A DNA stretch of 64,000 bases from Patescibacteria group bacterium. GTDB lineage: Bacteria > Patescibacteriota > Microgenomatia > Levybacterales > UBA12049. The notes under the pieces were generated by a model that saw only the letters and a program-made list of their open reading frames with translations, was not told where the DNA came from and did not search any database. Positions 22,514 to 50,899 of the stretch are shown piece by piece. The translations under genes and the position numbers were made by a program. Numbering within the stretch: the stretch's first letter is position 1; each line of letters starts with the position of its first letter. The stretch is from contig BPJB01000001.1 of assembly GCA_026004395.1 (NCBI GenBank), forward strand, positions 905,226 through 969,225. Reading direction: 5' to 3'.

Positions 22514-22524
22514 CAAAATGAGGA

Positions 22525-27019: not shown

Positions 27020-27033
27020 GAAAGGCAATTAAA

Positions 27034-29925: not shown

Positions 29926-29935
29926 AAGGAGCATT

Positions 29936-32246: not shown

Positions 32247-32277
32247 ATTTTAATCTTCAACTATCTTTAACTTCTAA

Positions 32278-32313
32278 CTTAGAGGTTTCACCTCTTTAGA
32301 GGTGAAACCTCTG
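32278..32313. repeat. REP doublet (REPIN-like), family 2: TAGAGGTTTCACCTCTTTAGAGGTGAAACCTCTGA
   Basis: Two AGAGGT-nnn-ACCTCT hairpins in inverted orientation, directly abutting. The same unit flanks the RAYT gene at 61055-61167. Confidence 0.75.
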
Positions 32314-37300: not shown

Positions 37301-38885
37301 AGCACCAGTACACAAACTAGAACTAGCCTCACACACAACAGCAGCTGGCGGCATAGGTTTTGGCACTGATGTAGAACTCTACAGAGGAGCTGCTAACACA
37401 CTCTACCTTGCCTCTGGTGACTCCCTCAACTTAGTATCAGGCAATCTACAAGTTGCTGGTACAACAGTTATCACCAGTGGTAGGATTATCCAGGCTGCCA
37501 ATGGATCTGCTGCCTCACCCTCATTCACCTTCGCATCCGACACCAACACAGGCATATTTGGGACTGGTAGTGATGTACTCGCTCTCTCAACTGCTGGTGT
37601 AGAAAGACTAAGAGTTGATGCCAGTGGCAATGTGGGTATTGGGACGACTGCACCAACTTCCAAACTAGACATCACCTCAACTGGTACAACCACCAACGGA
37701 TTAAATATCACAGCCAACTCCCTAACAACTGGAACAGGTTTCTCCCTCTCCTCCACATCAACAACTCTCACATCAGGTGGACTCCTCTCTCTTGACTGGT
37801 CCCCAACATCAGCCACTACAGCAACAGGTGATCTTCTCTCCATCAACATCGGTACCAACGGCAACATCGGCAAACTTTTCAACATCAAAGACGCAGGATC
37901 AAGTATCTTCTCCGTCTCAGAATCAACATTTGAAACATCTCTCCCCGTCAACTTCACCTCTCCAGGTGACGTCTCCATTGCCTACGACCTACTCTTCACC
38001 AACCCAACAGCCTCCTACATCAAATCATCAGCTCCTCTCTACATCCAAGCTGGTGAAACATTCAACTCCTCAGACCTCACACTTCAGACCTACAATGCTG
38101 GCAACGTCATCATTGACTCCCAAGCTCTTGTTACCAATCAAGCAGCCACCATCTCAGGTCAACTAGTTATCGGAACAACAAACCCCAACTCCGCTCACAT
38201 AGGCAACTTTTATCTGACCAACTCATCAACCTTTGGCAAAGCTCTTGCCATACTCAACCAAACAGAATCCGCTGACATCTTCACTGCCTCCTCCTCCGGC
38301 ACCACAAGATTTACCATATCCAACAACGGCACCCTCACTGCCACAGCTTACACAATAAACAATGGCTTACTATATACCAATACATCAGGTGTCATCTCTC
38401 AAGTTTCTGACACACCTGCCACCAACGAATGTCTCATCTTCAACGGATCTACCATCCTCTGGGATGCATGCTCAACTGGTGGAGGTGTCACTGGATCAGG
38501 CACCACCAACTACATACCCAAATGGAACTCTTCCTCCTCACTCACAGACTCAACCATCTTTGACAACGGCAACGTGGGTATTGGCACAACAACACCAACT
38601 ACCAAGTTAGAACTAGGCAGTGGTCAATTAGCAGTACCACTAGGATCAGCTACAACTCCATCCTACACCTTCAGCGGAGATCTCAATACCGGTATCTGGT
38701 CATCAGGAGCAGACACTCTCAACTTCTCCACTGGAGGATCTGAAAGAATAAGAATTATCAGCAACGGCAACGTCGGCATCGGGACGACGAGTCCAGCAGT
38801 AAAGCTACATGTTATAGGAACAGGTAAATTCGAAACAGGTCCTAATACATGGAACTGGATAGAAATAAATAGAGGCGGGGGATAA
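34305..38885 (+). CDS. giant membrane-anchored fibre protein 1: N-terminal tandem XerD-type SAM-like/core-binding domains, TM, then GNVGIGTT..KL.V tail-fibre-like repeats
   Basis: aa 1-100: LLARFKKYLEAQKNPPSYLTVKNYLSDIRQFITWYE...IDAYINYRKNLNSASVRSTERYLSSLRKFFDFLKEKKYISSNPL matches the phage-integrase N-terminal SAM-like domain. Two further partial copies follow (LKAFKDYLYVYNASNLTIKNYINDVKQFLDWV; SINRKLSSLRKFLSWAQDEGLV). There is no R..HxxR..Y catalytic domain. Strong TM at about aa 480 (IVHYFHFAALIIFMSVIGFGLY). About 1000 aa of Gly/Thr/Ser/Asn-rich repeats with recurring NGNVGIGTTAPxxKLEL. Confidence 0.75.
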   Translation: MDLLARFKKYLEAQKNPPSYLTVKNYLSDIRQFITWYETTQQQEFKPKQITKLLIDAYINYRKNLNSASVRSTERYLSSLRKFFDFLKEKKYISSNPLKDQNRLTNNPDPWKLKAFKDYLYVYNASNLTIKNYINDVKQFLDWVAKSSGIKTPDQDTITFWRNTKINIFSLINKELLQKYRSYLLSQLKLSENLYLEKQNKDINTTTIQQSGNAISLSDSKEATATDLNTKQGLSILSINRKLSSLRKFLSWAQDEGLVQIDLSSLSNIRRTAEVKAISSEDAQRTFTGPSAAGESEKTQLISHLAPLDDSSKDNQNDKYPSRQIETLDTEQKHKYSSFPPLRLIQKLVKATLLGIDLTIIAGIAKLLEQITYIKWLASGKQIFIKSAKKQLDFIVNKNIKSTLDNTQPENRFSSIVDLVSKENPRLEKNSNTQYHIPNIKSRFHPAHPEFTTLPLHYRILGHLRHTRPQWYIKYHQYPIVHYFHFAALIIFMSVIGFGLYRSFFEQPQKEKTLAAPPTAPPRILSFQGRLTDISDNPITSATPLRFAIYNDLTASGSALLWQEVQTVTPDTDGVFSVLLGTNTTIPSSVFTDNSSLYLGVTVQTDPELTPRQQIATVAFAANSETLQGLYPITAAGAGTSNVVLALDSSGNLTIGGSATPKFSATGGEFTLSGNVLSLTTNVGSNTNINISPDGKGVVNIIKPLQNTSLNNNITTAAGAVEVDDLFAVLATSSGQSAFTINQNGAGPLISASSSGIAKFTVNNDGSAYFAGNVGIGITSPTGILSLANSAAGVEILFSGANAANIYQSTSGQSLYINTNTGDLRLGANGSGSNDLVIKSTGNIGIGNTTASNFKLEVTGNIGPSADVTYNLGSPSLRWNNVYANNFIGSGTGGTAGYWQLNNGALSPAYSTNDVLIGGTATSSAKFGFINVIGSGTPTATISGNFSIQVPTGTNPAIKINALNGGSINFQTATTGQGDAGLTSRLFINNNGNVGIGTTAPVHKLELASHTTAAGGIGFGTDVELYRGAANTLYLASGDSLNLVSGNLQVAGTTVITSGRIIQAANGSAASPSFTFASDTNTGIFGTGSDVLALSTAGVERLRVDASGNVGIGTTAPTSKLDITSTGTTTNGLNITANSLTTGTGFSLSSTSTTLTSGGLLSLDWSPTSATTATGDLLSINIGTNGNIGKLFNIKDAGSSIFSVSESTFETSLPVNFTSPGDVSIAYDLLFTNPTASYIKSSAPLYIQAGETFNSSDLTLQTYNAGNVIIDSQALVTNQAATISGQLVIGTTNPNSAHIGNFYLTNSSTFGKALAILNQTESADIFTASSSGTTRFTISNNGTLTATAYTINNGLLYTNTSGVISQVSDTPATNECLIFNGSTILWDACSTGGGVTGSGTTNYIPKWNSSSSLTDSTIFDNGNVGIGTTTPTTKLELGSGQLAVPLGSATTPSYTFSGDLNTGIWSSGADTLNFSTGGSERIRIISNGNVGIGTTSPAVKLHVIGTGKFETGPNTWNWIEINRGGG

Positions 38886-39070
38886 GATATACTTCTGGTA
38901 GTGATGACACAAACAGAGGAATATGGTCCAATGGCCAATACGCGATGTCGGTATTTACACAAATGGTGTTAATAGAATTTTAGTCAAAAGGAGATTCTGG
39001 CAACGTCGGCATCGGGACAACAACACCCCTTGGCAAACTCAATGTTGATGGTGCTGCCACCGGCAAAGCA

Positions 39071-42000
39071 TTGGTCATCCTCAATGAAACTGGTGATCAG
39101 GCCATACTCACTGCCAGTAAGTCAGGATCAACCAAGTTCCTCATTGACAACAACGGCAATGTTGGCATTGGCACCACTACTATCACCCCAGGCTTCACCT
39201 TCGACAATATCGGACGCGGCAGATTCTCAACAGGTCTATCAATCGGCACAACTGCCACCACCAACACACTCGAACTCTCAGGTACTCTCAACCAAACCTC
39301 AGGTCAAGTAACCTTCGGTGGAAACGTAGATGCTACATCAGGTCTTGACGTCACAGGTGCCTCCCTCACCGTTGGAGGATCAGCCTTCACAGTCACCACC
39401 GCTGGAGTCATAACTGGTACATCCCAAACACTCACCTCAACAGGCAACGCCCTCACACTCTCTGGTGCTGGTGCCAATATATCCTTCAGCGGTGCTGGTC
39501 TTGCCCAAATCACAACAGCTGCCTCCCAACACCTCGCCCTCATGCCAGGCGGCAACGTGGGTATTGGGACGACAACACCCCAAATGAAACTCGATGTAGC
39601 AGGAGCAATAGGAATATCAGGCACAACTGTCATTGATGCATCAAGAAACCTAACCAACATCGCAGGAGTATCAACACACCTTAACCCAACAACTGCCAAC
39701 ACCTACAACCTAGGAACAGGAACTGGCAATCAATACCTCAACCTCTACGCACAAAACATCTACCAAAATGGTATAGCAGTCTGTGACGCCAATGGCAACA
39801 ACTGCCCAACAGGTGGCAACGCTGGACCATGGACAGAAACAGCAGGCATTGTCTACCTAGACACCACCTCCAACAAAGTCTCAATAGGTGACACAACAAC
39901 AGAACACAAACTAGAAGTAGAAGGAGCAATCACCGGCAAAGCACTAGTCTCCCTCTGGGAAAAAGGTGATCAGGACATCTTAGTAGCCTCCAACTCTGCT
40001 ACCCCCACCAACGTCTTCAGAATTACCAATAACGGCTCAATTATCAGCAATGGCACTATTACCGCATCAACCACTAATACCATCAATAGTCTATCCATCA
40101 ACAATGCATCCATCACCAACGCAGTTAATCTAACAGCATCAGGAACAATCACCTTCTCAGGATTAACTCCCAACAGATTAGTCACCACTGATCCCTCATC
40201 CAATCTCACCACCTCCATCTCCTCAGCCAACGTCGCTGCATCAGTAACTGACGAAACAGGAACTGGCAATCTAGTCTTTAACACCTCACCCTCATTCACA
40301 ACCAGCATCACAACAGGATCAACCTCCTTCTCCCTCCTCAATACAACAGCAACTACCATCAACGCCTTCGGTGCAGCAACAACACTGAATATAGGAGCAA
40401 ACTCCGGAACCTTAACACTTGGCAATCCAACTGTTGTTGGCACTCAAACAACTCAAAATCTCTGGAATACCACTGCCACAACCATCAACTTTGCAGGAGC
40501 AGCAACTACTTTGAATATGGGAGCCTCTTCTGGAACAACAACCATCAACAATGCCACTCTCTCTCTACCTAATGCCACCTCAGTCAATATCGCAGGAGCA
40601 TCAGCTATCATCAACCTCTCCTCCTCAACTGGTGCCAAACAAATACAAACAGGTGGAACTACCAACTTAGCCCTCATGCCAGGCGGCAACGTCGGCATCG
40701 GGACGACGAATCCGGGGGCTAAACTTGAAGTTAACGGAACTAGTGATATTGTTCAACTGAAGGTAAAACCAAATGGAAGTCAAACAGCTAATCTTATCGA
40801 AGTTGGAACAGGTAACTTAACCTTTGCCATAAATGGATCCAATAATGTCGCTGTCTCTACTCTTCCTTCAACTGATACCTTCCTAAGAGTCGGTTCTACA
40901 GGATATATCTCATTTAACTCATCTTCTGCTGTCTATGGTATTACTACCACTCCTGTTAACTTTGGTTCAGGAAACGTAGTTGGTATCAGCGCAGGTCCTG
41001 TTACAAATAACTCAGGCGCTGTTTCTGCAATAACAAGTATCTATGGAAGTGTGCGCACAGCGGGTGGAGTATCCAATATTGTAGCAGCAGGAAAAATTTT
41101 TGAAGCTGGTTCCCCTACGATTTCATCAGGTGGTATTACTACTCTTACAGGACTTTATATCAATCAACAAAAAGTAAGTGGTGTGACAACTGGTTATGGT
41201 ATCTATCAAGTATCCTCTGCAGACCTGAATTACTTCGCTGGCAACGTCGGCATCGGGACGACAGCACCAGTCCACAAACTAGAACTAGCTACCCATACAA
41301 CAGCAGCTGGTGGTATAGGTTTTGGCACTGATGTAGAACTCTACAGAGGAGCTGCTAACACACTCTACCTTGCCTCTGGTGACTCTCTCAACTTAGTATC
41401 CGGCAATCTACAAGTTGCTGGTACAACAGTTATCACCAGTGGTAGGATCATCCAGGCTGCCAATGGATCTGCTGCCTCACCCTCATTCACCTTCGCCTCC
41501 GACACCAACACAGGCATATTTGGAACTGGCGCTGATGTACTTGCTCTCTCAACTGCTGGAGTAGAGAGACTAAGAGTTGATGCCAGCGGCAATGTGGGTA
41601 TAAACACCACCTCACCCTCCTATAAACTAGACGTCCAAGGTGGATCAGGCATAGTAGCTCAGTTTAGTGGCAGAGTCATAGGCGCTGATGCTATCAACAC
41701 CAATGAGTTCGTAACTCTAGGTCAACTCCAAGGAGGCAGTGGATCCCTCTGGCTTGATGGTGGAGATTATCTATATCCTAACTCCTCCTTTGCCACCAAT
41801 GTCATGGTACCATCAGGAAGACTAGGTATAGGTCTAACATCTACTCCTTTCAAATTAGAAATCAATGGCAATGATCCCGGCAAAGCCCTAGTCTCCCTCA
41901 ACTACACTGGCACTGATCAAAACATCTTAGTTGCCTCTCAATCTGGAAATCTAAAGTTTGCTGTAGGATACAATGGCAATATCACATCAGCAACTGGTAC

Positions 42001-45000
42001 CCAATGGCTTCCCACCTCAGATTCAACCACTGCTTTGAATATTGCCAATGCTGCAGGAACTTCATTCGTCACCTTTGACAGTACTAATCAACGTGTTGGA
42101 ATTGGGACTACAGCACCAACTACCAAGTTAGAACTAGGCAGTGGTCAATTAGCAGTACCACTAGGATCAGCTACAACTCCATCCTACACCTTCAGCGGAG
42201 ATCTCAATACCGGAATCTGGTCATCAGGAGCAGACACTCTCAACTTCTCCACAGGAGGATCTGAAAGAATAAGAATTATCAGCAACGGCAACGTCGGCAT
42301 CGGGACGACGGGACCTACGGCAAAACTACAAATTGAAGGCTCTGGGGCAAATATATTCCTTAGCAACACGACCTCAAAGTATATCACTTTTGGAGCAGCC
42401 GGCTTTGCTCCTCCTGCTATAGATAGTGCCGGAACCAAATTAATCCTTTACGGTAGTGCCAATAATAATACTAATAACCCAAGATATGCGATGGGGATTG
42501 CACCATCAGAATTGTGGTATTCAAGTGGAGGTGTGCATAGGTGGTATACAGAAAGCGCAGGAACATGGACACCAAGGATGACAATAGATACCTCCGGCAA
42601 CGTCGGCATCGGGACGACAGCTCCTCTTGAAAAACTAGATGTATCAGGAAATGCAACAGTCTCTGGCAATCTCACCTTCTCTGGAGCAAGAACAATCGCC
42701 TCAAGAGCATTCACTCAACTAACCATTGGTGATACCCAAACTGGAAATATCCTTTTCTCACCAGCATCTGGAAAACAAATAATGTTCTTCTCCTCATCCA
42801 ACTACATAGACTCCTCTGGAAACCTTGTTCTCGCTGGCACAACAGGCATCACAGCATCAGGAACAGGTGCTGGTCTTAATTTCTCAGGCACTGGAACCCA
42901 TATCATCCAAGCAAGCGCTGGCACTCTCCAAATCAACGCCTTCACTCTAGGAGGAGCCATAACAGGCAACAACCAAAACATCTCCAGCATCGGCAACATC
43001 ACAGCCAATACCAGTGCCAATACCATAACAGGATTTGGTACTATTGGAACATCAGGTACTACAGCATTCCAAGGTATAACAGCAACACTCAATGGTACTG
43101 GCAACGCTCTCACCCTCTCTGGTGCTGGCGCCAACATCGCCTTTACTGGTGCTGGTCTTGCACAGATCACAACAGCTGCCTCCCAACACCTCGCCCTCAT
43201 GCCAGGCGGCAACGTCGGTATAAACACCACCTCACCCTCCTACAAACTAGACGTCCAAGGTGGATCAGGCATAGTAGCTCAGTTTAGTGGCAGAGTCATA
43301 GGCGCTGATGCTATCAACACCAATGAGTTCGTAACTCTAGGTCAACTCCAAGGAGGCAGTGGATCCCTCTGGCTTGATGGTGGAGACTATCTCTACCCCA
43401 ACTCCTCCTTTGCCACCAATGTCATGGTACCATCAGGAAGACTAGGTGTTGGTCTCTCCTCCACTCCCTTCAAACTGGAAATAACAGGTGCTGATGCTGG
43501 CAAAGCTCTAGCTTCCTTCAACTACACAGGCACTGATCAGAACATCCTTGTTGCTTCACAATCTGGCACACTCAAATTTGCTGTTGGATACAATGGCAAC
43601 ATCACCTCTGCAACAGGTACCAAATGGCTACCTACCTCAGACTCAACCACTGCTTTGAATATAGCCAACTCCTCTGGTACCTCCTTCGTCACCTTTGACA
43701 CTACCAATCAGAGAGTTGGAATTGGGACGACGGCACCTGGAGCAACATTAGACGTATCTGGGACTGATACTTTATTGCAAGATATAAGGTTTGTAGAAGC
43801 AAGCGGAATTAACTATATCCAAAGTACTAACAATAGAGGAGCAAACACATGGCAACCTCTCCACATTGGTGCTGGTTACAGTGGAAGCGATATTAAATTA
43901 GCAATAGACTCTACAGGCAACGTCGGCATCGGGACAACGGGACCGGGACAAAGATTAGATGTACAAGCTTCTGGAACAAATGATGATAGTATAAGACTCA
44001 CCACTGGAAATGCAGATGGTGGTTTACGCTTGAAAAATACTGGCACCGGCGGAGTTGAGTGGTTTATTGATTCTACATCAGGCTCAAGTGGTTACGGACA
44101 AGGAAAACTTGCGTTCGTACCAAATGTTGGGAGCACTCCAACAATGACATTAAGTGGCAGCAACGTAGGTATAAGCACCACAGCTCCAGGGGCATTACTG
44201 GATGTTAGAGGCAACGTTAGATTTCTTTCACAGACCAATAATTATTATCGTACATTTTTTGAAGCTACTACTGAAGGCGGATGGAATTTTCCGTCAATGA
44301 TAGTAGGACAACAAAGAGGAATTGTTATAAAAGATCGATCTGGACTAAGCGGAGGATTATGGCTAAATGGAGGAGATTATAATGCCATTGGTTCAAGAGG
44401 CGGAATAGGAGTTGGTTTAGTTACTGATCTTGGAACATATTTTGCATTAACCTCTTCATCTTCATTCATTAGATTTCACGATGGACAAATTATATTTTAT
44501 GGTAATACAGGATTAACCCCAGGATCAACGTTTTCGCCAACAGAACGTATACGTATTGATGCAACCGGCAACGTCGGCATCGGGACGACGAATCCAACAG
44601 AAAAATTAGAAGTAGTCGGAGATGTGAGGCTTAGGTCTGATAGTGATGTAAATACAAGTGTAGGATCTGGAGTATTGCAAATTTTAAACTCTGGGGGCAC
44701 AGCTGGTATTCATCTTGATGCTAACGAAATCCAAGCTATAGGAAATGATCTCCATATCAACAATGATAATCAAGTTAATACACATATTAACAACTTAGTT
44801 CACATAACTACAGGCGGCAACGTCGGCATCGGGACGACGGGTCCGGTAGCGAAGTTGGATGTGGCAGGATTAATAAAAGGTTCAAGTGGTTTTAGCTCCG
44901 ATGGTACAGCGAAAGTATTAACATACAGGTTGTCGAATTCAACCACAAATAGTGGCGATAGGTATATTGGAAGATTTACCGGCTCTCAATCTAACAGAAT

Positions 45001-47911
45001 AAAAATTACTATCATTGGTCAGGACGGATATAGTGGCTCTTCGCTTGGTAGAGAAACGGTAATTTATGGACAGTTTAATAATAATAATGATTTAGAGGGT
45101 CAATGGTACAACCTTGGTGGTTCAAATGGGGGAGCAATAACAGATGTTAAAGTGGAAGATATGGGTGCCAATGATTTCAAAATATACATTACTCATGGAC
45201 AATATTTTGAAGCAGTAGTAACAGTTGAAATAAGCGGTGGAACATTTACACCAGCTGACTCTCTTACTTCACCAACTGCTTACACTTCGCTTACAAAGCA
45301 ATTTATAGTCTTAGCAAATACTGGTATTGGATATGAAAATCCAGGTACGGCGAAATTGGCAATAAATGGCAACGTCGGCATCGGGACGACGAATCCTTCT
45401 TACAAACTTGATGTTCAAGGAGGATCTGGAATTGTTGCTCAGTTCTCAGGAAGAGTCATAGGCGCTGATGCTGTCAACACCAATGAGTTTGTTACTCTAG
45501 GTCAACTCCAAGGTGGCAGTGGATCCCTCTGGCTTGATGGTGGAGACTATCTCTACCCCAACTCCTCCTTTGCCACCAATGTCATGGTACCATCAGGAAG
45601 ACTAGGTATAGGTCTAACATCTACTCCTTTCAAATTAGAGATCAGTGGCAATGATCCCGGCAAAGCCCTAGTCTCCCTCAACTACACTGGCACTGATCAA
45701 AACATCTTAGTTGCCTCTCAATCTGGAAATCTAAAGTTTGCTGTAGGATACAATGGCAATATCACATCAGCAACTGGTACCCAATGGCTTCCCACCTCAG
45801 ACTCAACCACTGCTTTGAATATTGCCAATGCTGCAGGAACTTCATTCGTCACCTTTGACAGTACTAATCAACGTGTTGGTATTGGGACTACAGCACCAAC
45901 TACCAAGTTAGAACTAGGCAGTGGTCAATTAGCAGTACCACTAGGATCAGCTACAACTCCATCCTACACCTTCAGCGGAGATCTCAATACCGGAATCTGG
46001 TCATCAGGAGCAGACACTCTCAACTTCTCCACAGGAGGATCTGAAAGAATAAGAATTATCAGCAACGGCAACGTCGGCATCGGGACGACAGCACCAGTCC
46101 ACAAACTAGAACTAGCTACCCATACAACAGCAGCTGGTGGTATAGGTTTTGGCACTGATGTAGAACTCTACAGAGGAGCTGCTAACACACTCTACCTTGC
46201 CTCTGGTGACTCTCTCAACTTAGTATCCGGCAATCTACAAGTTGCTGGTACAACAGTTATCACCAGTGGTAGGATCATCCAGGCTGCCAATGGATCTGCT
46301 GCCTCACCCTCATTCACCTTCGCCTCCGACACCAACACAGGCATATTTGGAACTGGCGCTGATGTACTTGCCATCTCAACTGCTGGAGTAGAGAGACTAA
46401 GAGTTGATGCCAGCGGCAATGTGGGTATAAACACCACCTCACCCTCCTATAAACTAGACGTCCAAGGTGGATCAGGCATAGTAGCTCAGTTTAGTGGCAG
46501 AGTCATAGGCGCTGATGCTATCAACACCAATGAGTTCGTAACTCTAGGTCAACTCCAAGGAGGCAGTGGATCCCTCTGGCTTGATGGTGGAGACTATCTC
46601 TACCCCAACTCCTCCTTTGCCACCAATGTCATGGTACCATCAGGAAGACTAGGTATAGGTCTAACATCTACTCCTTTCAAATTAGAAATCAATGGCAATG
46701 ATCCCGGCAAAGCCCTAGTCTCCCTCAACTACACTGGCACTGATCAAAACATCTTAGTTGCCTCTCAATCTGGAAATCTAAAGTTTGCTGTAGGATACAA
46801 TGGCAATATCACATCAGCAACTGGTACCCAATGGCTTCCCACCTCAGATTCAACCACTGCTTTGAATATTGCCAATGCTGCAGGAACTTCATTCGTCACC
46901 TTTGACAGTACTAATCAACGTGTTGGAATTGGGACTACAGCACCAACTACCAAGTTAGAACTAGGCAGTGGTCAATTAGCAGTACCACTAGGATCAGCTA
47001 CAACTCCATCCTACACCTTCAGCGGAGATCTCAATACCGGAATCTGGTCATCAGGAGCAGACACTCTCAACTTCTCCACAGGAGGATCTGAAAGAATAAG
47101 AATTATCAGCAACGGCAACGTCGGCATCGGGACGACGAATCCAGGGGCGAAACTAGAAATTTCAAATGGAACAATTGGTATACAAGTTGCTCCAGGACTA
47201 TATTGGAATGGTAGTTCTATGGTTTCAGATAATAACTGGGTTAATTTTGATATTCCAGGCACTAAAAACGTTAACTTTTCAGATAATTTTATAGTAACCG
47301 GTGGCAACGTCGGCATCGGGACGACGAGTCCTGAAGCCAAACTTAATGTCCAAGGTGGAAGTATAAGAGTTGGATCCTCTTCAGGAAATTATGAAGAGAT
47401 TACGGGTGGCGATATTGGTATAAGACATCGCTGGGTAAACGATCCTGCAGACAACTATAGATTTTGGCTAGCAGCTAACGCAGGTATTGCCCTCGGGCTT
47501 ACTGGTAATGACGGTGGCGCCCTACGACTTGCAGATAGCGGAGCAAATACAGTGACTTTCTATGTCAAACAAAGTGGTATAGGAATTCTAAGAGCTAGTA
47601 GCAATGATGTCCTTGCTTTTACCTCTTCCGGCAACGTCGGCATCGGGACAACAGTACCAGCGTATAAATTGGATGTTGTTGGAGAGATTAGGGCATTTGG
47701 TAGTGGAGATACAAGATACAGAGTATATTCTAGTGGGACTACTGGTTGGGTAGGTTACGAATTAAGATCAAGCGGTTTAGATGCATTTGCTGGTGGTATA
47801 TTTAGAAACAATGCTGATAATAACAGAGTATCTATTTGGTCTAAAAATCAAGAAGCAATAAGTATTTTAGATTCCGGCAACGTCGGCATCGGGACGACGG
47901 GACCGGGGTAG
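39071..47911 (+). CDS. giant fibre protein 2 (at least 2946 aa) built from tail-fibre-like repeats; the frame is open from 38984, has no ATG, and uses a TTG at 39071
   Basis: About 20 repeats containing GNVGIGTT(A/S/G/N)P..KL(D/E)V, long Gly/Thr/Ala/Ser-rich beta-strand-type sequence. The reading frame continues upstream of the annotated start to a TAG at 38981-38983, which suggests former continuity with ORF 1. Confidence 0.75.
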   Translation: MVILNETGDQAILTASKSGSTKFLIDNNGNVGIGTTTITPGFTFDNIGRGRFSTGLSIGTTATTNTLELSGTLNQTSGQVTFGGNVDATSGLDVTGASLTVGGSAFTVTTAGVITGTSQTLTSTGNALTLSGAGANISFSGAGLAQITTAASQHLALMPGGNVGIGTTTPQMKLDVAGAIGISGTTVIDASRNLTNIAGVSTHLNPTTANTYNLGTGTGNQYLNLYAQNIYQNGIAVCDANGNNCPTGGNAGPWTETAGIVYLDTTSNKVSIGDTTTEHKLEVEGAITGKALVSLWEKGDQDILVASNSATPTNVFRITNNGSIISNGTITASTTNTINSLSINNASITNAVNLTASGTITFSGLTPNRLVTTDPSSNLTTSISSANVAASVTDETGTGNLVFNTSPSFTTSITTGSTSFSLLNTTATTINAFGAATTLNIGANSGTLTLGNPTVVGTQTTQNLWNTTATTINFAGAATTLNMGASSGTTTINNATLSLPNATSVNIAGASAIINLSSSTGAKQIQTGGTTNLALMPGGNVGIGTTNPGAKLEVNGTSDIVQLKVKPNGSQTANLIEVGTGNLTFAINGSNNVAVSTLPSTDTFLRVGSTGYISFNSSSAVYGITTTPVNFGSGNVVGISAGPVTNNSGAVSAITSIYGSVRTAGGVSNIVAAGKIFEAGSPTISSGGITTLTGLYINQQKVSGVTTGYGIYQVSSADLNYFAGNVGIGTTAPVHKLELATHTTAAGGIGFGTDVELYRGAANTLYLASGDSLNLVSGNLQVAGTTVITSGRIIQAANGSAASPSFTFASDTNTGIFGTGADVLALSTAGVERLRVDASGNVGINTTSPSYKLDVQGGSGIVAQFSGRVIGADAINTNEFVTLGQLQGGSGSLWLDGGDYLYPNSSFATNVMVPSGRLGIGLTSTPFKLEINGNDPGKALVSLNYTGTDQNILVASQSGNLKFAVGYNGNITSATGTQWLPTSDSTTALNIANAAGTSFVTFDSTNQRVGIGTTAPTTKLELGSGQLAVPLGSATTPSYTFSGDLNTGIWSSGADTLNFSTGGSERIRIISNGNVGIGTTGPTAKLQIEGSGANIFLSNTTSKYITFGAAGFAPPAIDSAGTKLILYGSANNNTNNPRYAMGIAPSELWYSSGGVHRWYTESAGTWTPRMTIDTSGNVGIGTTAPLEKLDVSGNATVSGNLTFSGARTIASRAFTQLTIGDTQTGNILFSPASGKQIMFFSSSNYIDSSGNLVLAGTTGITASGTGAGLNFSGTGTHIIQASAGTLQINAFTLGGAITGNNQNISSIGNITANTSANTITGFGTIGTSGTTAFQGITATLNGTGNALTLSGAGANIAFTGAGLAQITTAASQHLALMPGGNVGINTTSPSYKLDVQGGSGIVAQFSGRVIGADAINTNEFVTLGQLQGGSGSLWLDGGDYLYPNSSFATNVMVPSGRLGVGLSSTPFKLEITGADAGKALASFNYTGTDQNILVASQSGTLKFAVGYNGNITSATGTKWLPTSDSTTALNIANSSGTSFVTFDTTNQRVGIGTTAPGATLDVSGTDTLLQDIRFVEASGINYIQSTNNRGANTWQPLHIGAGYSGSDIKLAIDSTGNVGIGTTGPGQRLDVQASGTNDDSIRLTTGNADGGLRLKNTGTGGVEWFIDSTSGSSGYGQGKLAFVPNVGSTPTMTLSGSNVGISTTAPGALLDVRGNVRFLSQTNNYYRTFFEATTEGGWNFPSMIVGQQRGIVIKDRSGLSGGLWLNGGDYNAIGSRGGIGVGLVTDLGTYFALTSSSSFIRFHDGQIIFYGNTGLTPGSTFSPTERIRIDATGNVGIGTTNPTEKLEVVGDVRLRSDSDVNTSVGSGVLQILNSGGTAGIHLDANEIQAIGNDLHINNDNQVNTHINNLVHITTGGNVGIGTTGPVAKLDVAGLIKGSSGFSSDGTAKVLTYRLSNSTTNSGDRYIGRFTGSQSNRIKITIIGQDGYSGSSLGRETVIYGQFNNNNDLEGQWYNLGGSNGGAITDVKVEDMGANDFKIYITHGQYFEAVVTVEISGGTFTPADSLTSPTAYTSLTKQFIVLANTGIGYENPGTAKLAINGNVGIGTTNPSYKLDVQGGSGIVAQFSGRVIGADAVNTNEFVTLGQLQGGSGSLWLDGGDYLYPNSSFATNVMVPSGRLGIGLTSTPFKLEISGNDPGKALVSLNYTGTDQNILVASQSGNLKFAVGYNGNITSATGTQWLPTSDSTTALNIANAAGTSFVTFDSTNQRVGIGTTAPTTKLELGSGQLAVPLGSATTPSYTFSGDLNTGIWSSGADTLNFSTGGSERIRIISNGNVGIGTTAPVHKLELATHTTAAGGIGFGTDVELYRGAANTLYLASGDSLNLVSGNLQVAGTTVITSGRIIQAANGSAASPSFTFASDTNTGIFGTGADVLAISTAGVERLRVDASGNVGINTTSPSYKLDVQGGSGIVAQFSGRVIGADAINTNEFVTLGQLQGGSGSLWLDGGDYLYPNSSFATNVMVPSGRLGIGLTSTPFKLEINGNDPGKALVSLNYTGTDQNILVASQSGNLKFAVGYNGNITSATGTQWLPTSDSTTALNIANAAGTSFVTFDSTNQRVGIGTTAPTTKLELGSGQLAVPLGSATTPSYTFSGDLNTGIWSSGADTLNFSTGGSERIRIISNGNVGIGTTNPGAKLEISNGTIGIQVAPGLYWNGSSMVSDNNWVNFDIPGTKNVNFSDNFIVTGGNVGIGTTSPEAKLNVQGGSIRVGSSSGNYEEITGGDIGIRHRWVNDPADNYRFWLAANAGIALGLTGNDGGALRLADSGANTVTFYVKQSGIGILRASSNDVLAFTSSGNVGIGTTVPAYKLDVVGEIRAFGSGDTRYRVYSSGTTGWVGYELRSSGLDAFAGGIFRNNADNNRVSIWSKNQEAISILDSGNVGIGTTGPG
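41240..42310 (+). repeat. 1.07-kb direct repeat inside giant gene 2 (copy A; copy B at 46066-47137, about 99% identical)
   Basis: Read directly: both copies begin GGCAACGTCGGCATCGGGACGACAGCACCAGTCCACAAACTAGAACTAGCTACCCATACAACAGCAGCTGG and end ...AGAATAAGAATTATCAGCAACGGCAACGTCGGCATCGGGACGACG. Only a handful of synonymous differences, for example GATTATCTATATCCTAAC versus GACTATCTCTACCCCAAC. Confidence 0.85.
45364..46088 (+). repeat. third copy (about 700 bp) of the distal part of the 1.07-kb repeat
   Basis: 45430-46076 matches 41650-42300 and 46475-47125 almost exactly (..GTCATAGGCGCTGATGCT[G/A]TCAACACCAATGAGTT..). Confidence 0.8.
46066..47137 (+). repeat. 1.07-kb direct repeat inside giant gene 2 (copy B)
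   Basis: See copy A at 41240-42310. Confidence 0.85.
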
Positions 47912-48575
47912 AAACTTCATGTAATCGGAAACTACAACAGATAACTAATGATTTAGAAGCTATTGACCCCAGCAACCGTATTCTTTGTAGCATCAAATGA
48001 TACTCTATCAACTACATGGCTCATCGGTAAAAACTCCAGGAATCAATTAATACTTAAAGATAAAGATCCAAATACTACTCTTACTGGTCAACGGCAGGCA
48101 CAGTTGCACTTTCAAACACACAACGGCACTGATTGATGGAACTGAATATAATTTTGCAACAGCTGCATTAACTAGTACAAGCGACTACTGTTGTGATTGA
48201 AATTACTAATCCCAATGGCCTTAACGCAGTTTACTCAAATGCAGCATGGTTTACGAGTGTTTTCTTTAGGAACAATTATGCCACAGCTCTATAACAGTTG
48301 ACGCACGTTATGATGGACATCCAGGATCCTATCAAACAATTTGGTCAACAACAACAAACGATCAAAGAACATGGCTAAGTTCAGCTGTCACGACCACGCT
48401 CACGGGATGACAGTCCCAGAAAATCACATCGTTGGTGGATCACTTACCTTGGTACCAGCGCTGGAGTCCACTTAACTACGGATGGACTCCAAACAGTAGA
48501 ACGGCAACTATCTCAGTATGCTCTTGAACTAGGAACAACATTTTATCGGTCATCAACTTTCCTACTGGTAGCTGC
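47912..48575 (+). pseudogene. degenerate, stop-riddled remnant of fibre-repeat coding sequence between giant ORFs 2 and 3
   Basis: Directly after the TAG at 47909-47911 the sequence still encodes KLHVIGNYNR, the same KLHVIG motif that ends ORF 1. It then gives protein-like translation interrupted by many stops in all frames. Confidence 0.4.
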
Positions 48576-50147
48576 TTGATACTCCCTACAGCGGAACAGA
48601 ATCACCTCGCACTCATGCCAGGTGGCAACGTGGGTATAAACACCACCACTCCAGTCTATACCCTTGATGTTAATGGCACATTTAGATCCTCATCGACATC
48701 AAACGCTGTTTTCGGCAATGGTACAACAGGTGGAATCCAACTAGGAGATGGTACTATTACAAAAACTACAGGCAATCCCTTTACTATGAATAGTGGACTA
48801 ACACTTAGCCAAAATCTCGCAGTCAATGGCGGTTCAATCACCTCAACTGTTGATCTGACTCTCAATCCATCAGGCGGTCAAGTCTTCCTCGCTGATACTG
48901 ATACCCTAGCTATAGGAGGCCATGCAGGAGCTGCCTACAACGCAATATCCAACGCAGGTGGAACTCCATCCAACCCCAACGTCACATCAGACAACGATCT
49001 CTACATCCAAGGCGATCTGGACATCGGAGGCACACTATATGTCGGTGGATCTCAAATTGCCAATTACTGGCAGCGCAATGGCACAACTCTTGCCCCAACA
49101 ACTACTACAGACAGTGTCGTACTAGGAGGCAATACATCAACTGTTCACCAGTTTGAAGTTAATGGAGCAGTAACAGGCAAGGCTCTTGTTGCCCTCACTG
49201 AGACTGGTGATCAAAATATCATCACTGCCTCCTCTTCTGCTACAACAACTGTCTTCAATCTCTCACGCACAGGCGCAATCAGCGTTGCCGCAGGACAAGG
49301 ATTGGATACGATCTCAGCTGGAGCACTTAATATAGGTACCACCACCCAAACAGCACTTACTCTTGGACAATCAGGAGCAACAACAACTATTAATGGCTCA
49401 TCTCTAACTGTTGGTCCCACCTCATGGACAGCAACACCTACTATCTCAGGACTGATCACAGCCACAAGCGGACTCACTGCCAACGGAGCACTCACCGCTA
49501 ACAACGTCTTTACACTAGGAGACGGTGGTGACACAGGATCAATCAACACCTCAGACTGGGATATCTCAACCACAGGCGTTATGACTGGTATCTCAGGCAT
49601 AACAACAGATGGAGGATACACTCAGTCAGGTACTGCCATCAATACCTTCACCGGTGATCTATCTCTTGGAACAGGTGTACAGGTAGACTTCGCAGATGAA
49701 GTCGGTGACAAATTGTATCTTTTCTCCAATACATATGGAATAGGCATTGAATCCTCAACACTCACCAACTGGTCAGCAAGTACATTCCGCTGGAGAATAG
49801 GTGGCACATCTGTCTCAACTGGCACTGAATACATGACACTAACAAGCAGTGCTCTTAACCTTGCCAACAACACTCTGACCTCAACTGTGATCTCACCCTC
49901 AATCCCTCAGGAGGCCAAGTCTTCCTCGCTGATACGATACCCTAGCTATTGGAGGCCATGCAGGAGCTGCCTACAACGCAATATCCAACGCAGGTGGAAC
50001 TCCATCCAACCCCAACGTCACATCAGACAACGATCTCTACATCCAAGGCGATCTGGACATCGGAGGCACACTATATGTCGGTGGATCTCAAATTGCCAAT
50101 TACTGGCAGCGCATCGCTGGCAACCTCTCACCAATAAATCTCAATGA
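48576..50147 (+). CDS. fibre-protein fragment 3 (523 aa as called); the last ~85 codons are out-of-frame read-through of a duplicated segment
   Basis: Starts ...QNHLALMPGGNVGINTTTPVYTLDVNG, the motif seen in gene 2. The C-terminal Arg-rich tail (RYPSYWRPCRSCLQRNIQRRWNSIQPQRHIRQRS...) is the +1 frame of a copy of 48860-49077. Confidence 0.5.
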   Translation: MILPTAEQNHLALMPGGNVGINTTTPVYTLDVNGTFRSSSTSNAVFGNGTTGGIQLGDGTITKTTGNPFTMNSGLTLSQNLAVNGGSITSTVDLTLNPSGGQVFLADTDTLAIGGHAGAAYNAISNAGGTPSNPNVTSDNDLYIQGDLDIGGTLYVGGSQIANYWQRNGTTLAPTTTTDSVVLGGNTSTVHQFEVNGAVTGKALVALTETGDQNIITASSSATTTVFNLSRTGAISVAAGQGLDTISAGALNIGTTTQTALTLGQSGATTTINGSSLTVGPTSWTATPTISGLITATSGLTANGALTANNVFTLGDGGDTGSINTSDWDISTTGVMTGISGITTDGGYTQSGTAINTFTGDLSLGTGVQVDFADEVGDKLYLFSNTYGIGIESSTLTNWSASTFRWRIGGTSVSTGTEYMTLTSSALNLANNTLTSTVISPSIPQEAKSSSLIRYPSYWRPCRSCLQRNIQRRWNSIQPQRHIRQRSLHPRRSGHRRHTICRWISNCQLLAAHRWQPLTNKSQ

Positions 50148-50181
50148 CACAATCTCTGCTACTACATCAGCATCTACAGCA

Positions 50182-50715
50182 TTGACTATAACTCAAACTG
50201 GTGCATTTGATGTCGTCAGATTTGAAGATCAAGCATCAGATACAACACCATTCGTAATCGATCAAAATGGGAATGTCGGTATTGGTACCACAGCACCAGG
50301 GTACAAACTAGATGTAGCTGGAAGTGTCAATATTGGTAGTAATAGTCACTTATATTTTGCCGGAGGTAATCCTCATATTGAAAGTATATATGATGACTTT
50401 ATTTTCCAAGTTGATACTGACAATAATGCCACAGGTAGATTTTTCTTCAAAGACACAAATACCGATGTTATGACAATCGTCAATGGCAACGTGGGTATTG
50501 GTACAACTGCACCTACAGCCAAACTTGATATTACTGGTGATGCTTCCTCCTCCGGCTCTCTAGTACTTCGAGGTACTTCACCAACTACATTAGATATCTT
50601 AAATGGAGGAAGATTTGATATCCAAACCTCTGTAGGAGGAGATGCAGGACTTACTCCAAGATTGACAATCACCAGCAACGGCAATGTAGGCATCGGGACA
50701 ACGGGACCAGCTTGA
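50182..50715 (+). CDS. fibre-protein fragment 4 (177 aa; TTG start as called). Its frame extends upstream through the duplicated segment and downstream, via a 1-nt shift, into ORF 5
   Basis: Contains DQNGNVGIGTTAPGYKLDVAG and NGNVGIGTTAPTAKLDITG, and ends GNVGIGTTGPA*. The upstream in-frame sequence reads ...GGSQIANYWQRIAGNLSPINLNDTISATTSAS with no stop. Confidence 0.5.
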   Translation: MTITQTGAFDVVRFEDQASDTTPFVIDQNGNVGIGTTAPGYKLDVAGSVNIGSNSHLYFAGGNPHIESIYDDFIFQVDTDNNATGRFFFKDTNTDVMTIVNGNVGIGTTAPTAKLDITGDASSSGSLVLRGTSPTTLDILNGGRFDIQTSVGGDAGLTPRLTITSNGNVGIGTTGPA

Positions 50716-50899
50716 TCTTCTGGACGTAAATGGTGGCGTCATCATTCGCGATCGAGCTGCAATTCAAGGGACAGGCGCAAGCTGTAGCGCTCCTGGTGCT
50801 GGAACTGCAGGCTGGTGGTATGCTGATGCAGGAGATTGTTCAACTGTCTTTGCCGGGATAAATACTGCTACCAACGGCTCTGAGGTCTTTGGAATATAC

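What the first reader, a model, noticed from the sequence alone, without database searches (positions are those of the whole stretch)
41240..47137. Near-identical kb-scale direct repeats within one gene: a recombination or contraction-expansion substrate and an assembly hazard
Seen directly: 41240-42310 and 46066-47137 are about 99% identical over 1.07 kb. A third copy of the distal 650-700 bp lies at about 45430-46076, and a more diverged one at about 43215-43745. The proximal 350 bp also recurs in ORF 1 (about 37290-37640) and ORF 5 (about 51600-51935) at roughly 90%. Inter- and intragenic identity this high implies ongoing gene conversion or very recent duplication. It allows RecA-mediated deletion or duplication of 4.8-kb blocks, which would change fibre length. 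Short-read assemblies may also have collapsed or mis-ordered copies.
Basis: seen in the sequence. Interest (0 to 1): 0.6.

Follow-up and report, generated by a model that had tools for sequence, protein, structure and literature searches.

The report
Recombining repeat modules in fibre gene
The kilobase-long near-identical repeats are real: they are whole structural modules of a giant, phage-tail-fibre-like surface fibre gene of an ultrasmall (Patescibacteria) bacterium, recently duplicated and still being copied onto each other, which is a familiar way for adhesin genes to evolve.

Summary
Observation confirmed. 41240-42310 and 46067-47137 differ at 6 of 1071 ungapped positions. The partial copies at 45395-46089 and 43199-43737, in ORF1 (37278-37673, 91.7%) and in ORF5 (51581-51969, 85%, not about 90%) are also real.

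The repeats are in-frame blocks of fibre modules. Each block is bounded by a GNVGIGTT-coding motif, of which 16 copies share the same 20 nucleotides. Sharp switches from 100% to about 80% identity inside copies show gene conversion, not one duplication.

The "one gene" is a fragment. Coding similarity runs unbroken from 34305 to 54586 through five ORFs in different frames. A syntenic orthologue has a single intact 3,710-aa gene that matches both ends, with only 11 motifs and 73-84% repeats. The expansion is therefore lineage-specific.

The shaft is homologous to Bdellovibrio MAT fibres and phage tail fibres.

The source is a PacBio HiFi assembly, so short-read collapse does not apply. Whether all frame breaks are real is unresolved.

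This is a new member of a known kind and moderately interesting. One side lead: the same GC-rich 20-mer is over-represented at this motif in unrelated low-GC metagenome contigs.

The parts
34305..38885 (+). ORF1 (1526 aa). It holds the N-terminal end of the fibre gene: three Phage_int_SAM-like stretches (aa 1-~260), a hydrophobic helix, then a GNVGIGTT-module shaft.
   Evidence: Pfam PF02899 E 5e-17, three stretches. PHROG tail-fibre families. aa 1-1137 are collinear with the first ~995 aa of the intact orthologue in L002, 40% identity.
35751..35819 (+). Probable transmembrane helix (YFHFAALIIFMSVIGFGLYRSFF). It separates the cytoplasmic N-terminal region from the external shaft.
   Evidence: Read directly from the translation. 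No predictor was run, so this is inference.
37278..37673 (+). Copy of module A in ORF1. It starts exactly at a junction motif.
   Evidence: 91.7% identical to 41240-41635. dN/dS 0.14.
38568..38789 (+). Copy of module C in ORF1. It ends exactly at a junction motif.
   Evidence: About 198 bp with 2 mismatches to the three ORF2 copies. 96.4% over 222 bp.
38883..38998 (+). Break 1. ORF1 stops at TAA 38883-38885. Fibre-like coding continues through three frame changes into the ORF2 frame.
   Evidence: Three-frame translation. BLASTX frame map changes 0->2 at ~38885-38900.
38984..47911 (+). ORF2 open frame (2975 codons; annotated as KatS3mg089_0920 from TTG 39071). It consists of shaft modules only, with no N-terminal anchor and no C-terminal domain.
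   Evidence: PHROG tail fibre E 1e-80. PDB 8OND (Bd2133) E 1e-12.
41240..42310 (+). Repeat a1: module A (41240-41587), modules B-C (41588-42286) and a closing junction motif (42287-42310).
   Evidence: 6 mismatches in 1071 bp to a2: 5 synonymous and 1 Leu/Ile, in two clusters. Both boundaries coincide with motif copies.
43199..43737 (+). Copy d of module B. It is a mosaic: 43244-43447 (204 bp) is identical to a2, then 43448-43737 is about 80% identical (dS 0.94).
   Evidence: Permutation test: 0 of 200,000.
45395..46089 (+). Copy c3 of modules B-C, in tandem with a2 (period 1047 bp). It is a mosaic: the start of the module, 45373-45514, is about 77% identical, then 4 mismatches in 575 bp.
   Evidence: Permutation P = 1e-4.
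46067..47137 (+). Repeat a2 (modules A, B-C and closing junction motif), 4827 bp downstream of a1.
47909..48527 (+). Break 2, a degenerate stretch. It has in-frame stops TAG 47909 (inside GNVGIGTTGPG*KLHVIG), TAA 47942, TAG 47954 and TGA 48525, plus at least one frame change.
   Evidence: BLASTX frame 2 runs to ~48130 and frame 0 from ~48285.
48528..49887 (+). Fibre-coding part of ORF3 (frame 0). The annotated tail of ORF3 beyond 49887 is out of frame.
49878..50113 (+). Second copy of 48840-49077. It carries two 1-nt deletions relative to the in-frame first copy, after 49887 and after 49935, and is otherwise 100% identical over the last 178 bp. This is break 3 (frames 0->2->1).
   Evidence: Pairwise alignment A1..
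49933..50715 (+). ORF4 open frame (260 codons) of shaft modules. It ends at break 4, a single indel just after the junction motif at 50680 (GPA / LDLLDVNG).
50690..54586 (+). ORF5 open frame (1298 codons): shaft modules plus the conserved C-terminal domain of the family.
   Evidence: The last 400 aa are 51% identical to the C-terminus of P0060 (E 5e-118) and match the C-termini of 25 other homologues. aa 522-1228 are collinear with the end of the L002 gene.
51581..51969 (+). Copy of module A in ORF5.
   Evidence: 84-85% identical to the ORF1 and ORF2 copies. dN/dS 0.20-0.26.
50969..51363 (+). Copy of 42836-43230 (the module that ends in ...HLALMPGGNVGIGTT). It ends at a junction motif.
   Evidence: 88% identity. 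dN/dS 0.03.
41240..41259 (+). One of 16 exact copies of the junction 20-mer GGCAACGTCGGCATCGGGAC (codes GNVGIGT). The copies start at 37278, 38766, 38999, 40685, 41240, 42287, 42596, 43916, 44567, 44816, 45368, 46067, 47114, 47303, 47630 and 47876.
   Evidence: 0 expected in shuffles, all on the + strand, only inside the fibre locus. 31 motif occurrences in all.

Best explanation
The repeats are whole structural modules of a giant surface fibre gene in a Patescibacteria (CPR) genome. The fibre resembles phage tail fibres and Bdellovibrio MAT fibres.

The shaft is built from modules, each closed by the peptide GNVGIGTT. In this lineage the middle of the gene has been enlarged by duplication of module blocks. 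One block is A (116 aa) plus B-C (233 aa), 1047 bp in all. It is present once at 41240, again at 46067, and as a tandem partial copy at 45395.

The copies continue to be homogenised by gene conversion, including between the parts now read as ORF1, ORF2 and ORF5.

Duplication boundaries fall on the junction motif. That motif is identical at the nucleotide level in 16 places and gives 20-24 nt of perfect homology in frame. Any crossover between two motifs or two module copies therefore adds or removes whole modules without breaking the frame.

The likely consequence, which is inferred and not shown, is variation in fibre length and module content of an attachment organelle.

In this assembly the ancestral single gene (34305-54586, about 6,760 codons) is interrupted at four places. 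At least the break at 47.9-48.5 kb looks like real decay.
For: Repeats and boundaries:
- Near-identity of the copies and exact coordinates.
- Both ends of the 1071-bp block coincide with motif copies. Five further repeat families also end or start on a motif.

Gene conversion:
- Copy d is identical to a2 for 204 bp and then about 80% identical (dS 0.94). Copy c3 shows the opposite pattern.
- Permutation tests give 0 of 200,000 and 1e-4.
- The four clustered a1-specific differences contrast with three other copies that agree with each other.

Translated modules:
- dN/dS between paralogous modules in ORF1, ORF2 and ORF5 is 0.03-0.27.

One ancestral gene:
- BLASTX similarity is continuous across five frames.
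- The single protein P0060 (3710 aa) matches the ORF1 N-terminus (E 6e-63) and the ORF5 C-terminus (E 5e-118).
- Its locus, L002, is syntenic: four flanking genes are in the same order at 38-49% amino-acid identity.

Lineage-specific expansion and homogenisation:
- L002 has 11 motifs, all with different codons, and repeats of only 73-84% identity.
- The window has 31 motifs, 16 of them identical 20-mers.

Fibre identity:
- PDB 8OND (Bd2133) E 1e-12.
- PHROG tail-fibre families E 1e-80.
- Many homologues carry Peptidase_S74.
- MAT family description in PMC10769870.

Assembly: HiFi reads with N50 10.5 kb. A k-mer contig from the same run is identical to the window over 16,267 bp of flank.
Against: - No reads or close relatives were available. 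Copy number, arrangement and any length polymorphism in the population are therefore unverified.
- Block boundaries at module ends could reflect selection for foldable whole modules rather than crossover at the motif. The two cannot be separated here.
- The gene is interrupted, so present-day function is doubtful.
- A second fibre locus from the same assembly (L364) is also split, once at an A8 run. Some breaks may therefore be consensus errors.
- The trimeric beta-prism fold was not checked by structure prediction.
- RecA was not looked for.
Confidence: 0.7

Rival explanations
1. Expression site plus silent cassettes. ORF1, which has the anchor, would be the only expressed gene. ORF2 to ORF5 would be promoter-less donor cassettes kept open by selection. 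They would feed module variants into ORF1 by gene conversion, or become fused to it by motif-to-motif deletion, giving antigenic or host-range variation.
For: - ORF2 to ORF5 lack start regions, anchors and signal sequences and lie in different frames.
- Long frames stay open (2975 and 1298 codons) while disruptions are crowded into short scars.
- dN/dS is low in the downstream ORFs.
- ORF1 shares near-identical tracts with ORF2.
- Because every motif is read as GNVGIGTT in its own frame, a crossover between a motif in ORF1 and one in ORF5 would restore an intact N-to-C gene (inference).
Against: - The syntenic orthologue and several other homologues are single intact genes with the same two ends. 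The simplest reading is a recently broken gene.
- The conserved C-terminal domain sits only at the far end of the locus.
- Deletions are not reversible.
- No variant of ORF1 has been seen.
- Low dN/dS is equally expected if the breaks are recent.
Confidence: 0.12
2. The locus is really one intact giant gene of about 6,700 codons. On this reading the frameshifts and stops are consensus errors made by metaFlye where reads from repeats or from co-existing strains were mixed.
For: - All disruptions lie in the fibre. The other 44 kb of the window shows no visibly broken gene, and 16.3 kb of it equals an independent k-mer contig.
- A second Patescibacteria MAG from the same assembly also has a split fibre locus, with one shift at an A8 run.
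- Homologues from other assemblies are intact at 2,300-4,800 aa.
- The k-mer contig stops at 36202, where the external shaft begins, with no repeat of that k-mer in the window. That would fit strain branching.
Against: - Four of the disruptions are in-frame stop codons made by substitution, not indels.
- The two deletions at 49887 and 49935 are not in homopolymers.
- Three shifts fall within 110 bp at break 1.
- Another fibre gene of 3857 aa from the same assembly is intact (P0006).
- This rival concerns the state of the gene. It does not challenge the reality of the repeats.
Confidence: 0.25
3. A single very recent segmental duplication, followed only by point mutation, with no ongoing gene conversion.
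For: a1 and a2 differ at only 6 positions, and their offset is in frame. The spacing of those 6 differences alone is not significantly clustered by the longest-run test (P about 0.11).
Against: - Copies d and c3 switch abruptly between 100/99% and about 77-80% identity at internal points, in opposite directions (permutation).
- ORF1 carries a 198-bp tract with 2 mismatches next to sequence that is unrelated.
- One duplication cannot produce four partial copies with different breakpoints.
Confidence: 0.05
4. The repeats are an assembly artefact: a false duplication, or collapsed or misordered copies.
For: Repetitive fibre genes are hard to assemble, and the locus has other signs of trouble in its frame breaks.
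Against: - The HiFi reads (N50 10.5 kb, longest 43 kb) exceed both the repeat length and the distance between copies.
- The two copies have different unique flanks and 6 fixed differences.
- The 3.7 kb between them is different module content.
- All copies are in frame.
Confidence: 0.05

Closest known systems
Mosaic adhesive trimer (MAT) fibre proteins of Bdellovibrio bacteriovorus (Bd2133 etc.; Caulton et al. 2024, PMC10769870)
   Same: - The shaft is homologous in sequence to the solved Bd2133 fragment, PDB 8OND (E 1e-12), including the ...ERMRI..GN(V/L)G(I/L)GT..P..L.V module ends.
- Both are long surface fibres with variable content.
- Relatives fall into S74 and non-S74 types, as in the MAT family.
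- Both occur in a bacterium that must attach to other cells. The CPR lifestyle is taken from the literature (PMC11665869).
   Different: - The N-terminus here is three integrase-SAM-like stretches plus a membrane helix, not the Bdellovibrio N-terminal anchor domain.
- No S74 domain was detected in this locus.
- The gene is several times longer (about 6,760 codons, against Bd2133, which extends to at least residue 1,031 in the constructs of PMC10769870).
- It is interrupted.
- It shows kilobase-scale near-identical internal repeats, which one search did not find described for MATs.
Phage tail-fibre genes that evolve by recombination at conserved motifs (T-even gp37/gp38 'His-box' swapping, Tetart, Desplats and Krisch 1998; Sandmeier 1994; cited from my own knowledge, not checked here)
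   Same: - The shaft matches PHROG tail-fibre families (E 1e-80).
- Short conserved motifs delimit exchangeable segments.
- Repeat boundaries fall on those motifs.
   Different: - This is a chromosomal gene of a cellular organism with a membrane anchor.
- The motif differs: GNVGIGTT, with 20-24 nt conserved.
- Exchange is seen here only within one locus.
Tandem-repeat surface adhesins with concerted evolution and length variation (e.g. alpha C/Rib of group B streptococci, SasG/Aap of staphylococci; from my own knowledge)
   Same: Both have near-identical in-frame DNA repeats of hundreds of bp inside a surface protein gene. The repeats are kept alike by recombination and allow expansion or contraction.
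   Different: Here the repeats are dispersed (4.8 kb apart) as well as tandem. They are mosaics of three module types, and they sit in a tail-fibre-like shaft rather than in Ig-like or G5/E repeats.
Cassette-based antigenic variation (Neisseria pilE/pilS, Borrelia vlsE/vls, Mycoplasma genitalium MgPa/MgPar; from my own knowledge)
   Same: - One anchored ORF is followed by start-less homologous ORFs.
- Gene-conversion tracts are shared between them.
- Conserved sequences flank the variable segments.
   Different: - The downstream ORFs are collinear pieces of what is one gene in the orthologue.
- No variation at the putative expression site has been observed.
- No dedicated recombination factor was identified.

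Membership tests
MAT / phage-tail-fibre-like fibre superfamily | Shaft sequence homologous to known fibre shafts | tested here: met
   PDB 8OND Bd2133 E 1e-12 and 8OJN E 9e-4. PHROG tail-fibre phrog_9942 E 1e-80 and phrog_18345 E 3e-63.
MAT / phage-tail-fibre-like fibre superfamily | Intertwined trimeric beta-prism shaft | not tested
   No structure prediction was run, and a monomer model of an obligate trimer was judged unlikely to be informative. The fold is inferred only from sequence homology to 8OND.
MAT / phage-tail-fibre-like fibre superfamily | C-terminal Peptidase_S74 intramolecular chaperone (S74 subfamily) | tested here: not met
   Pfam finds no S74 or Peptidase_G2 in ORF5 or its last 449 aa, even at E <= 1. 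Many homologues have PF13884, and P0060 has a weak Peptidase_G2 hit. This locus therefore resembles the non-S74 type.
MAT / phage-tail-fibre-like fibre superfamily | Bdellovibrio-type invariant N-terminal anchor domain | tested here: not met
   The N-terminus is Phage_int_SAM_1/4/5-like (three stretches) followed by a hydrophobic helix. The same N-terminus is seen in 7 of the 120 listed homologues.
Intragenic repeats under concerted evolution (gene conversion) | Paralogous copies show mosaic tracts of identity with sharp breakpoints, including at synonymous sites | tested here: met
   A 204-bp identical run lies next to sequence with dS 0.94. Permutation gives 0 of 200,000 and 1e-4.
Intragenic repeats under concerted evolution (gene conversion) | Copies within the genome are more alike than orthologous or paralogous copies in a relative | tested here: met
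   Window repeats are 85-99.4% identical with 16 identical motif 20-mers. The syntenic orthologue has repeats of 73-84% and 0 of 11 shared motif versions.
Intragenic repeats under concerted evolution (gene conversion) | Copy-number or length polymorphism between individuals | not testable with these tools
   No reads were available, and no relative closer than about 40-50% amino-acid identity was found.
Cassette-based antigenic variation | Single expression site with promoter-less partial donor copies | tested here: inconclusive
   Only ORF1 has an N-terminus. ORF2 to ORF5 lack one. They are, however, collinear fragments of one orthologous gene. Promoter and terminator scans were at shuffle level.
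Cassette-based antigenic variation | Sequence variation at the expression site among cells or strains | not testable with these tools
   This needs the HiFi reads or time-series data.
Site-specific inversion systems (shufflons) | Inverted repeats flanking invertible segments, with an adjacent active recombinase | tested here: not met
   No inverted repeat of at least 25 bp occurs in 33000-56000. All copies are direct. The SAM-like domain in ORF1 has no catalytic integrase domain.
Diversity-generating retroelement target | Template/variable repeat pair differing at adenines, with a reverse transcriptase nearby | tested here: not met
   The a1/a2 differences are T>C x4, C>A and A>C, so they are not adenine-specific. 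The repeats are about ten times longer than DGR repeats. The window was not systematically scanned for a reverse transcriptase.

The most novel reading that the evidence does not exclude
The 20-24-nt junction sequence GGCAACGTCGGCATCGGGAC(GACG) would be more than a by-product of a conserved peptide. On this reading it is a DNA-level recombination linker, possibly helped by its 5-bp inverted repeat CGTCG...CGACG. The linker lets fibre modules be duplicated, deleted and exchanged in frame, within a locus and between genomes.

The start-less ORFs downstream of ORF1 would then serve as a module reservoir for varying the attachment fibre of an episymbiotic bacterium.

Hints:
- The window has 16 identical copies, all at repeat boundaries.
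- The same GC-rich version is the commonest of 132 versions in an unbiased metagenome sample. It occurs in 6 of 64 low-GC contigs, where about 0.06 instances are expected.
- Synonymous conservation stops at the motif edges.
Probability: 0.12. Interest if true: 0.7.

Novelty: new member of a known kind. Interest (0 to 1): 0.4.

Why it matters
Patescibacteria live attached to other microbes, and how they recognise hosts is largely unknown. This locus is a very large tail-fibre-like surface fibre with a membrane anchor. In one lineage its middle has more than doubled by module duplication and is still being homogenised. It is therefore a plausible, testable candidate for a rapidly evolving attachment organelle.

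In practice, the automatic annotation of five separate 'hypothetical proteins' hides one gene. Repeat-rich fibre loci in long-read MAGs also need read-level checking before they are called pseudogenes.

The repeat phenomenon itself, concerted evolution of in-frame repeats in an adhesin gene, is well known.

Tried and rejected
- **Alternative genetic code (TGA read as Gly).** Rejected. The ORFs lie in different frames, and the breaks use TAA, TAG and TGA.
- **DGR.** Rejected. The mismatches are not adenine-specific.
- **Inversion or shufflon.** Rejected. There are no inverted repeats.
- **Foreign origin or GC-biased conversion as the cause of the higher GC of the locus (0.44-0.48 against about 0.37).** Mostly explained by amino-acid composition. 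GC2 is 0.53 against 0.31-0.38 in most other genes of the window. GC3 is only 0.31-0.38 against 0.27-0.34.
- **Promoter and terminator scans.** Counts were at or near the level of shuffled sequence, so they were uninformative.
- **Tandem Repeats Finder.** It cannot see the 1047-bp period because its longest period is 500.
- **Exact-protein look-ups** for ORF1, ORF4, ORF5, the LamG gene and the 294-aa gene found nothing. No independent contig across the breaks was obtained. Only the flank was recovered.
- **Close relatives for a copy-number comparison.** None exist in the 5.8-billion-protein collection. The next best hits are 27-81% identical over short parts.
- **Literature searches.** They found no description of this CPR fibre architecture.
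- **Long nucleotide matches between the window and other loci that carry the 20-mer.** None found, only 45-60 nt around the motif. Recent transfer of long segments is therefore not the reason for the shared 20-mer.
- **Covariation of synonymous positions 9 and 21 of the motif.** Complementary in 81 of 180 against 53 expected, but confounded by GC content and shared ancestry. Left as a lead only.
- **Structure prediction.** Not run, because the homologous segments are too heterogeneous for a good alignment.
Full report
**1. The observation**

Ungapped, 41240-42310 and 46067-47137 differ at 6 of 1071 positions. Five differences are synonymous and one is Leu/Ile. They lie in two clusters, at 41545-6 and 41767-79.

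- The third copy is 45395-46089 (96.0-96.5% identical).
- The diverged copy is 43199-43737 (88%).
- Further pairs exist: 38570-38789 against three ORF2 copies, 42836-43230 against 50969-51363, and 48840-49077 against 49878-50113.

The longest exact repeat is 531 bp, against 12-15 bp in shuffles. No copy lies outside the locus.

**2. Source and assembly**

ORF2 is identical to KatS3mg089_0920, from a Patescibacteria MAG on a 1,084,101-bp contig. The MAG comes from Katase hot-spring sediment. It was sequenced with PacBio HiFi (read N50 10.5 kb, longest read 43 kb) and assembled with metaFlye 2.8.3 (PMC9671151).

The window carries ordinary chromosomal genes: LeuRS, ArgRS, ComEC and two tRNAs.

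A k-mer contig built independently from the same run (Logan, DRR290133) equals window 19936-36202 without a single difference. It ends at 36202, where the external part of the fibre begins.

Short-read collapse is therefore not the issue.

**3. What the repeats are**

The proteins are built from modules that each end in GNVGIGTT. There are 31 such motifs between 36828 and 52085. The near-identical block runs exactly from one motif (41240) to the end of another (42310). It contains module A (348 bp) and modules B-C (699 bp). The arrangement at 45368-47137 is B-C, A, B-C, which is a tandem with period 1047 bp.

Sixteen motifs share the identical 20-mer GGCAACGTCGGCATCGGGAC. All are on the + strand and all lie inside the locus. 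All eight codons of the 24-nt form of the motif seen in most of these copies (GGC AAC GTC GGC ATC GGG ACG ACG) end in G or C, in a genome whose GC3 is about 0.30.

All offsets between copies within ORF2 are multiples of three. A crossover between any two copies would therefore add or remove whole modules in frame: 1609, 1260 or 349 residues.

**4. Gene conversion**

Identity between copies is mosaic.

- Copy d equals a2 for 204 bp (43244-43447). It then drops to about 80% (58 differences in 290 bp, dS 0.94).
- Copy c3 is about 77% identical over its first 142 bp. It then has 4 differences in 575 bp.
- Permutation of the differences gives 0 of 200,000 and 20 of 200,000 for runs that long.
- ORF1 shares a tract of about 198 bp, with 2 mismatches, with three ORF2 copies. 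The tract ends at the motif.
- The four clustered differences in a1 are private to a1. The other three copies agree with each other.

One duplication followed by even divergence cannot give these patterns. dN/dS between module copies in ORF1, ORF2 and ORF5 is 0.03-0.27. The copies have therefore been under protein-level selection for most of their history.

**5. One gene, five ORFs**

ORF2 starts in the middle of a module. BLASTX against 119 homologues shows fibre-like coding without a gap from 34.3 to 54.6 kb. The frame changes as follows:

- 0->2 at about 38885-38900.
- 2->0 inside a degenerate stretch, 47911-48285.
- 0->2->1 at 49887 and 49935.
- 1->2 at about 50712.

Details of the breaks:

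- Break 1 has three shifts in 110 bp.
- Break 2 has a TAG inside the motif context GNVGIGTTGPG*KLHVIG, two more in-frame stops, and a TGA inside a recognisable module.
- Break 3 is two single-base deletions relative to the in-frame paralogous copy 48840-49077.
- Break 4 is one indel just after a motif.

A single protein, P0060 (3710 aa), matches the first 520 aa of ORF1 (E 6e-63) and the last 400 aa of ORF5 (51% identity, E 5e-118). Its locus, L002, has the same four flanking genes in the same order and orientation, at 38-49% amino-acid identity. ORF1 1-1137 and ORF5 522-1228 are collinear with its two ends. All hits of ORF2 to ORF5 fall inside that one gene.

The orthologue has 11 motifs, each with different codons, and internal repeats of only 73-84% identity. 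So the window holds an orthologue whose middle has grown about 2.4-fold, has been homogenised, and is now read as five ORFs.

**6. Are the breaks real?**

For real decay:
- Four disruptions are substitutions that create stops.
- The indels are not in long homopolymers.
- The rest of the window is clean.
- Another 3857-aa fibre gene from the same assembly is intact.

For artefact:
- A second Patescibacteria MAG of the same assembly (KatS3mg090, L364) also has its fibre gene split into several ORFs, once at an A8 run.
- Homologues from other assemblies are intact.
- The independent k-mer contig ends just where the shaft starts, which would fit strain heterogeneity.

I put about 0.25 on the reading that the locus is actually intact and the breaks are consensus errors. 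Only the reads can settle it.

**7. What kind of protein**

- ORF2 matches PHROG tail-fibre families (E 1e-80).
- It also matches the solved shaft fragment of Bdellovibrio Bd2133, PDB 8OND (E 1e-12), through the same ...ERMRI..GNxGxGT..P..L.V module ends.
- Bd2133 belongs to the mosaic adhesive trimer (MAT) family of surface fibres, which the predator uses to recognise prey. The family has S74 and non-S74 subfamilies (PMC10769870).
- Many homologues of the window protein carry Peptidase_S74. This locus does not.

The N-terminus is different from MATs. It has three Phage_int_SAM-like stretches without a catalytic domain, then a hydrophobic helix. Seven of the 120 listed homologues share this architecture.

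The function as an attachment fibre of an episymbiont is inferred from homology and lifestyle. It is not shown.

**8. Mechanism and rivals**

Best supported (0.7): lineage-specific duplication of module blocks by unequal homologous recombination, followed by continuing gene conversion. The nucleotide-identical junction motif and the module copies themselves provide in-frame homology.

Boundaries at motifs could also reflect selection for whole modules. I cannot separate the two.

Rivals are given with their tests: a silent-cassette system (0.12), a single duplication (0.05) and a false assembly of the repeats (0.05).

Inversion systems, DGRs and stop-codon recoding were tested and rejected.

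**9. Side observation**

The exact 20-mer occurs in at least 120 stretches of the species-representative genome collection. These come from CPR, DPANN archaea, Proteobacteria, Planctomycetes, Elusimicrobia and others, often several times per locus.

In unbiased samples taken with the degenerate pattern:
- It is the commonest of 132 versions in metagenome contigs: 14 of 175 instances, in 10 contigs with GC 0.34-0.66.
- The excess is confined to low-GC contigs: 6 of 64 loci, against 0.06 instances expected.
- It is weak in viral contigs.

Extra synonymous conservation reaches only four bases beyond the 20-mer and not into the flanks. No long nucleotide matches link the loci.

The 24-mer contains a 5-bp inverted repeat (DNA hairpin -6.2 kcal/mol, z -2.9). 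Complementarity of the free positions 9 and 21 is in excess but confounded.

I have no tested explanation. Candidates are GC-biased conversion among motif copies, spread of a recombination linker, or module transfer.

**10. Verdict**

The inference of conversion and recombination is right. The assembly worry is misdirected. The gene model is wrong in an informative way.

This is a new member of a known kind, in-frame repeats under concerted evolution in a tail-fibre-like adhesin gene. It sits in an interesting organism, and it comes with one unexplained nucleotide-level lead.

Noticed in passing
window 37278-47895 (16 sites); loci L003-L122, L123-L242, L244-L363: The exact 20-mer GGCAACGTCGGCATCGGGAC, which encodes GNVGIGT, is shared by fibre genes of very distant taxa. 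It is the commonest of 132 synonymous versions in an unbiased metagenome sample. It is strongly over-represented in low-GC contigs only: 6 of 64 loci, against about 0.06 instances expected. Synonymous conservation stops at the motif edges.
   Followed up: partly
window 41240-41263 and other 24-mer copies: The 24-mer GGCAACGTCGGCATCGGGACGACG contains a 5-bp inverted repeat, CGTCG...CGACG (DNA hairpin -6.2 kcal/mol, z -2.9). Across 180 motif versions, the free third-codon positions 9 and 21 are complementary more often than expected (81 against 53). The test is confounded by GC content and shared ancestry. In the window several copies (ACAACA) break the pairing.
   Followed up: partly
window 34305-35864: The fibre protein starts with three Phage_int_SAM-like stretches, which normally form the DNA-binding N-domain of tyrosine recombinases. 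There is no catalytic domain, and a membrane helix follows. The same N-terminus occurs in 7 of the 120 listed homologues, including the syntenic orthologue. What a recombinase-type DNA-binding domain does at the cytoplasmic end of a surface fibre is unknown.
   Followed up: partly
L364 8707-18460 (KatS3mg090, same assembly): A second Patescibacteria MAG from the same HiFi/metaFlye assembly also has its SAM-anchored fibre gene split into about five ORFs. One frame change is at an A8 run inside the S74-like C-terminal part. This is either recurrent decay of these genes or an assembly-specific consensus problem.
   Followed up: partly
window 36202: The independent k-mer (Logan) contig from the same sequencing run is identical to the window for 16,267 bp. 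It ends at 36202, just after the membrane helix, although that k-mer is not repeated in the window. Possible reasons are a repeat elsewhere in the metagenome or strain-level branching at the start of the external shaft.
   Followed up: partly
window 55009-59646: Directly downstream lies a separate 1545-aa gene with five Laminin_G_3 (concanavalin-like lectin) domains plus DUF2341 and a sub-threshold PA14 match (23.4 bits against a 24-bit cut-off). It is probably another large surface or binding protein. It has no counterpart at this position in the syntenic locus L002, where a different 3587-aa secreted protein follows.
   Followed up: no
window 28447-29925: A 492-aa protein has a weak, sub-threshold match to the C-terminal domain of the CPR Pam pilus pilin (NF058581, E 4e-8, 33.5 bits against a cut-off of 55). 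It and its neighbours (365, 329 and 294 aa) are conserved in synteny next to the fibre gene in L002.
   Followed up: no
window 32247-34304: A 2-kb AT-rich stretch (GC about 0.30) with only one small ORF (33572-33940) separates the upstream genes from the start of the fibre gene. This is unusually long for a 1.08-Mb genome. It may hold the promoter or regulatory region, or remnants of something else.
   Followed up: no
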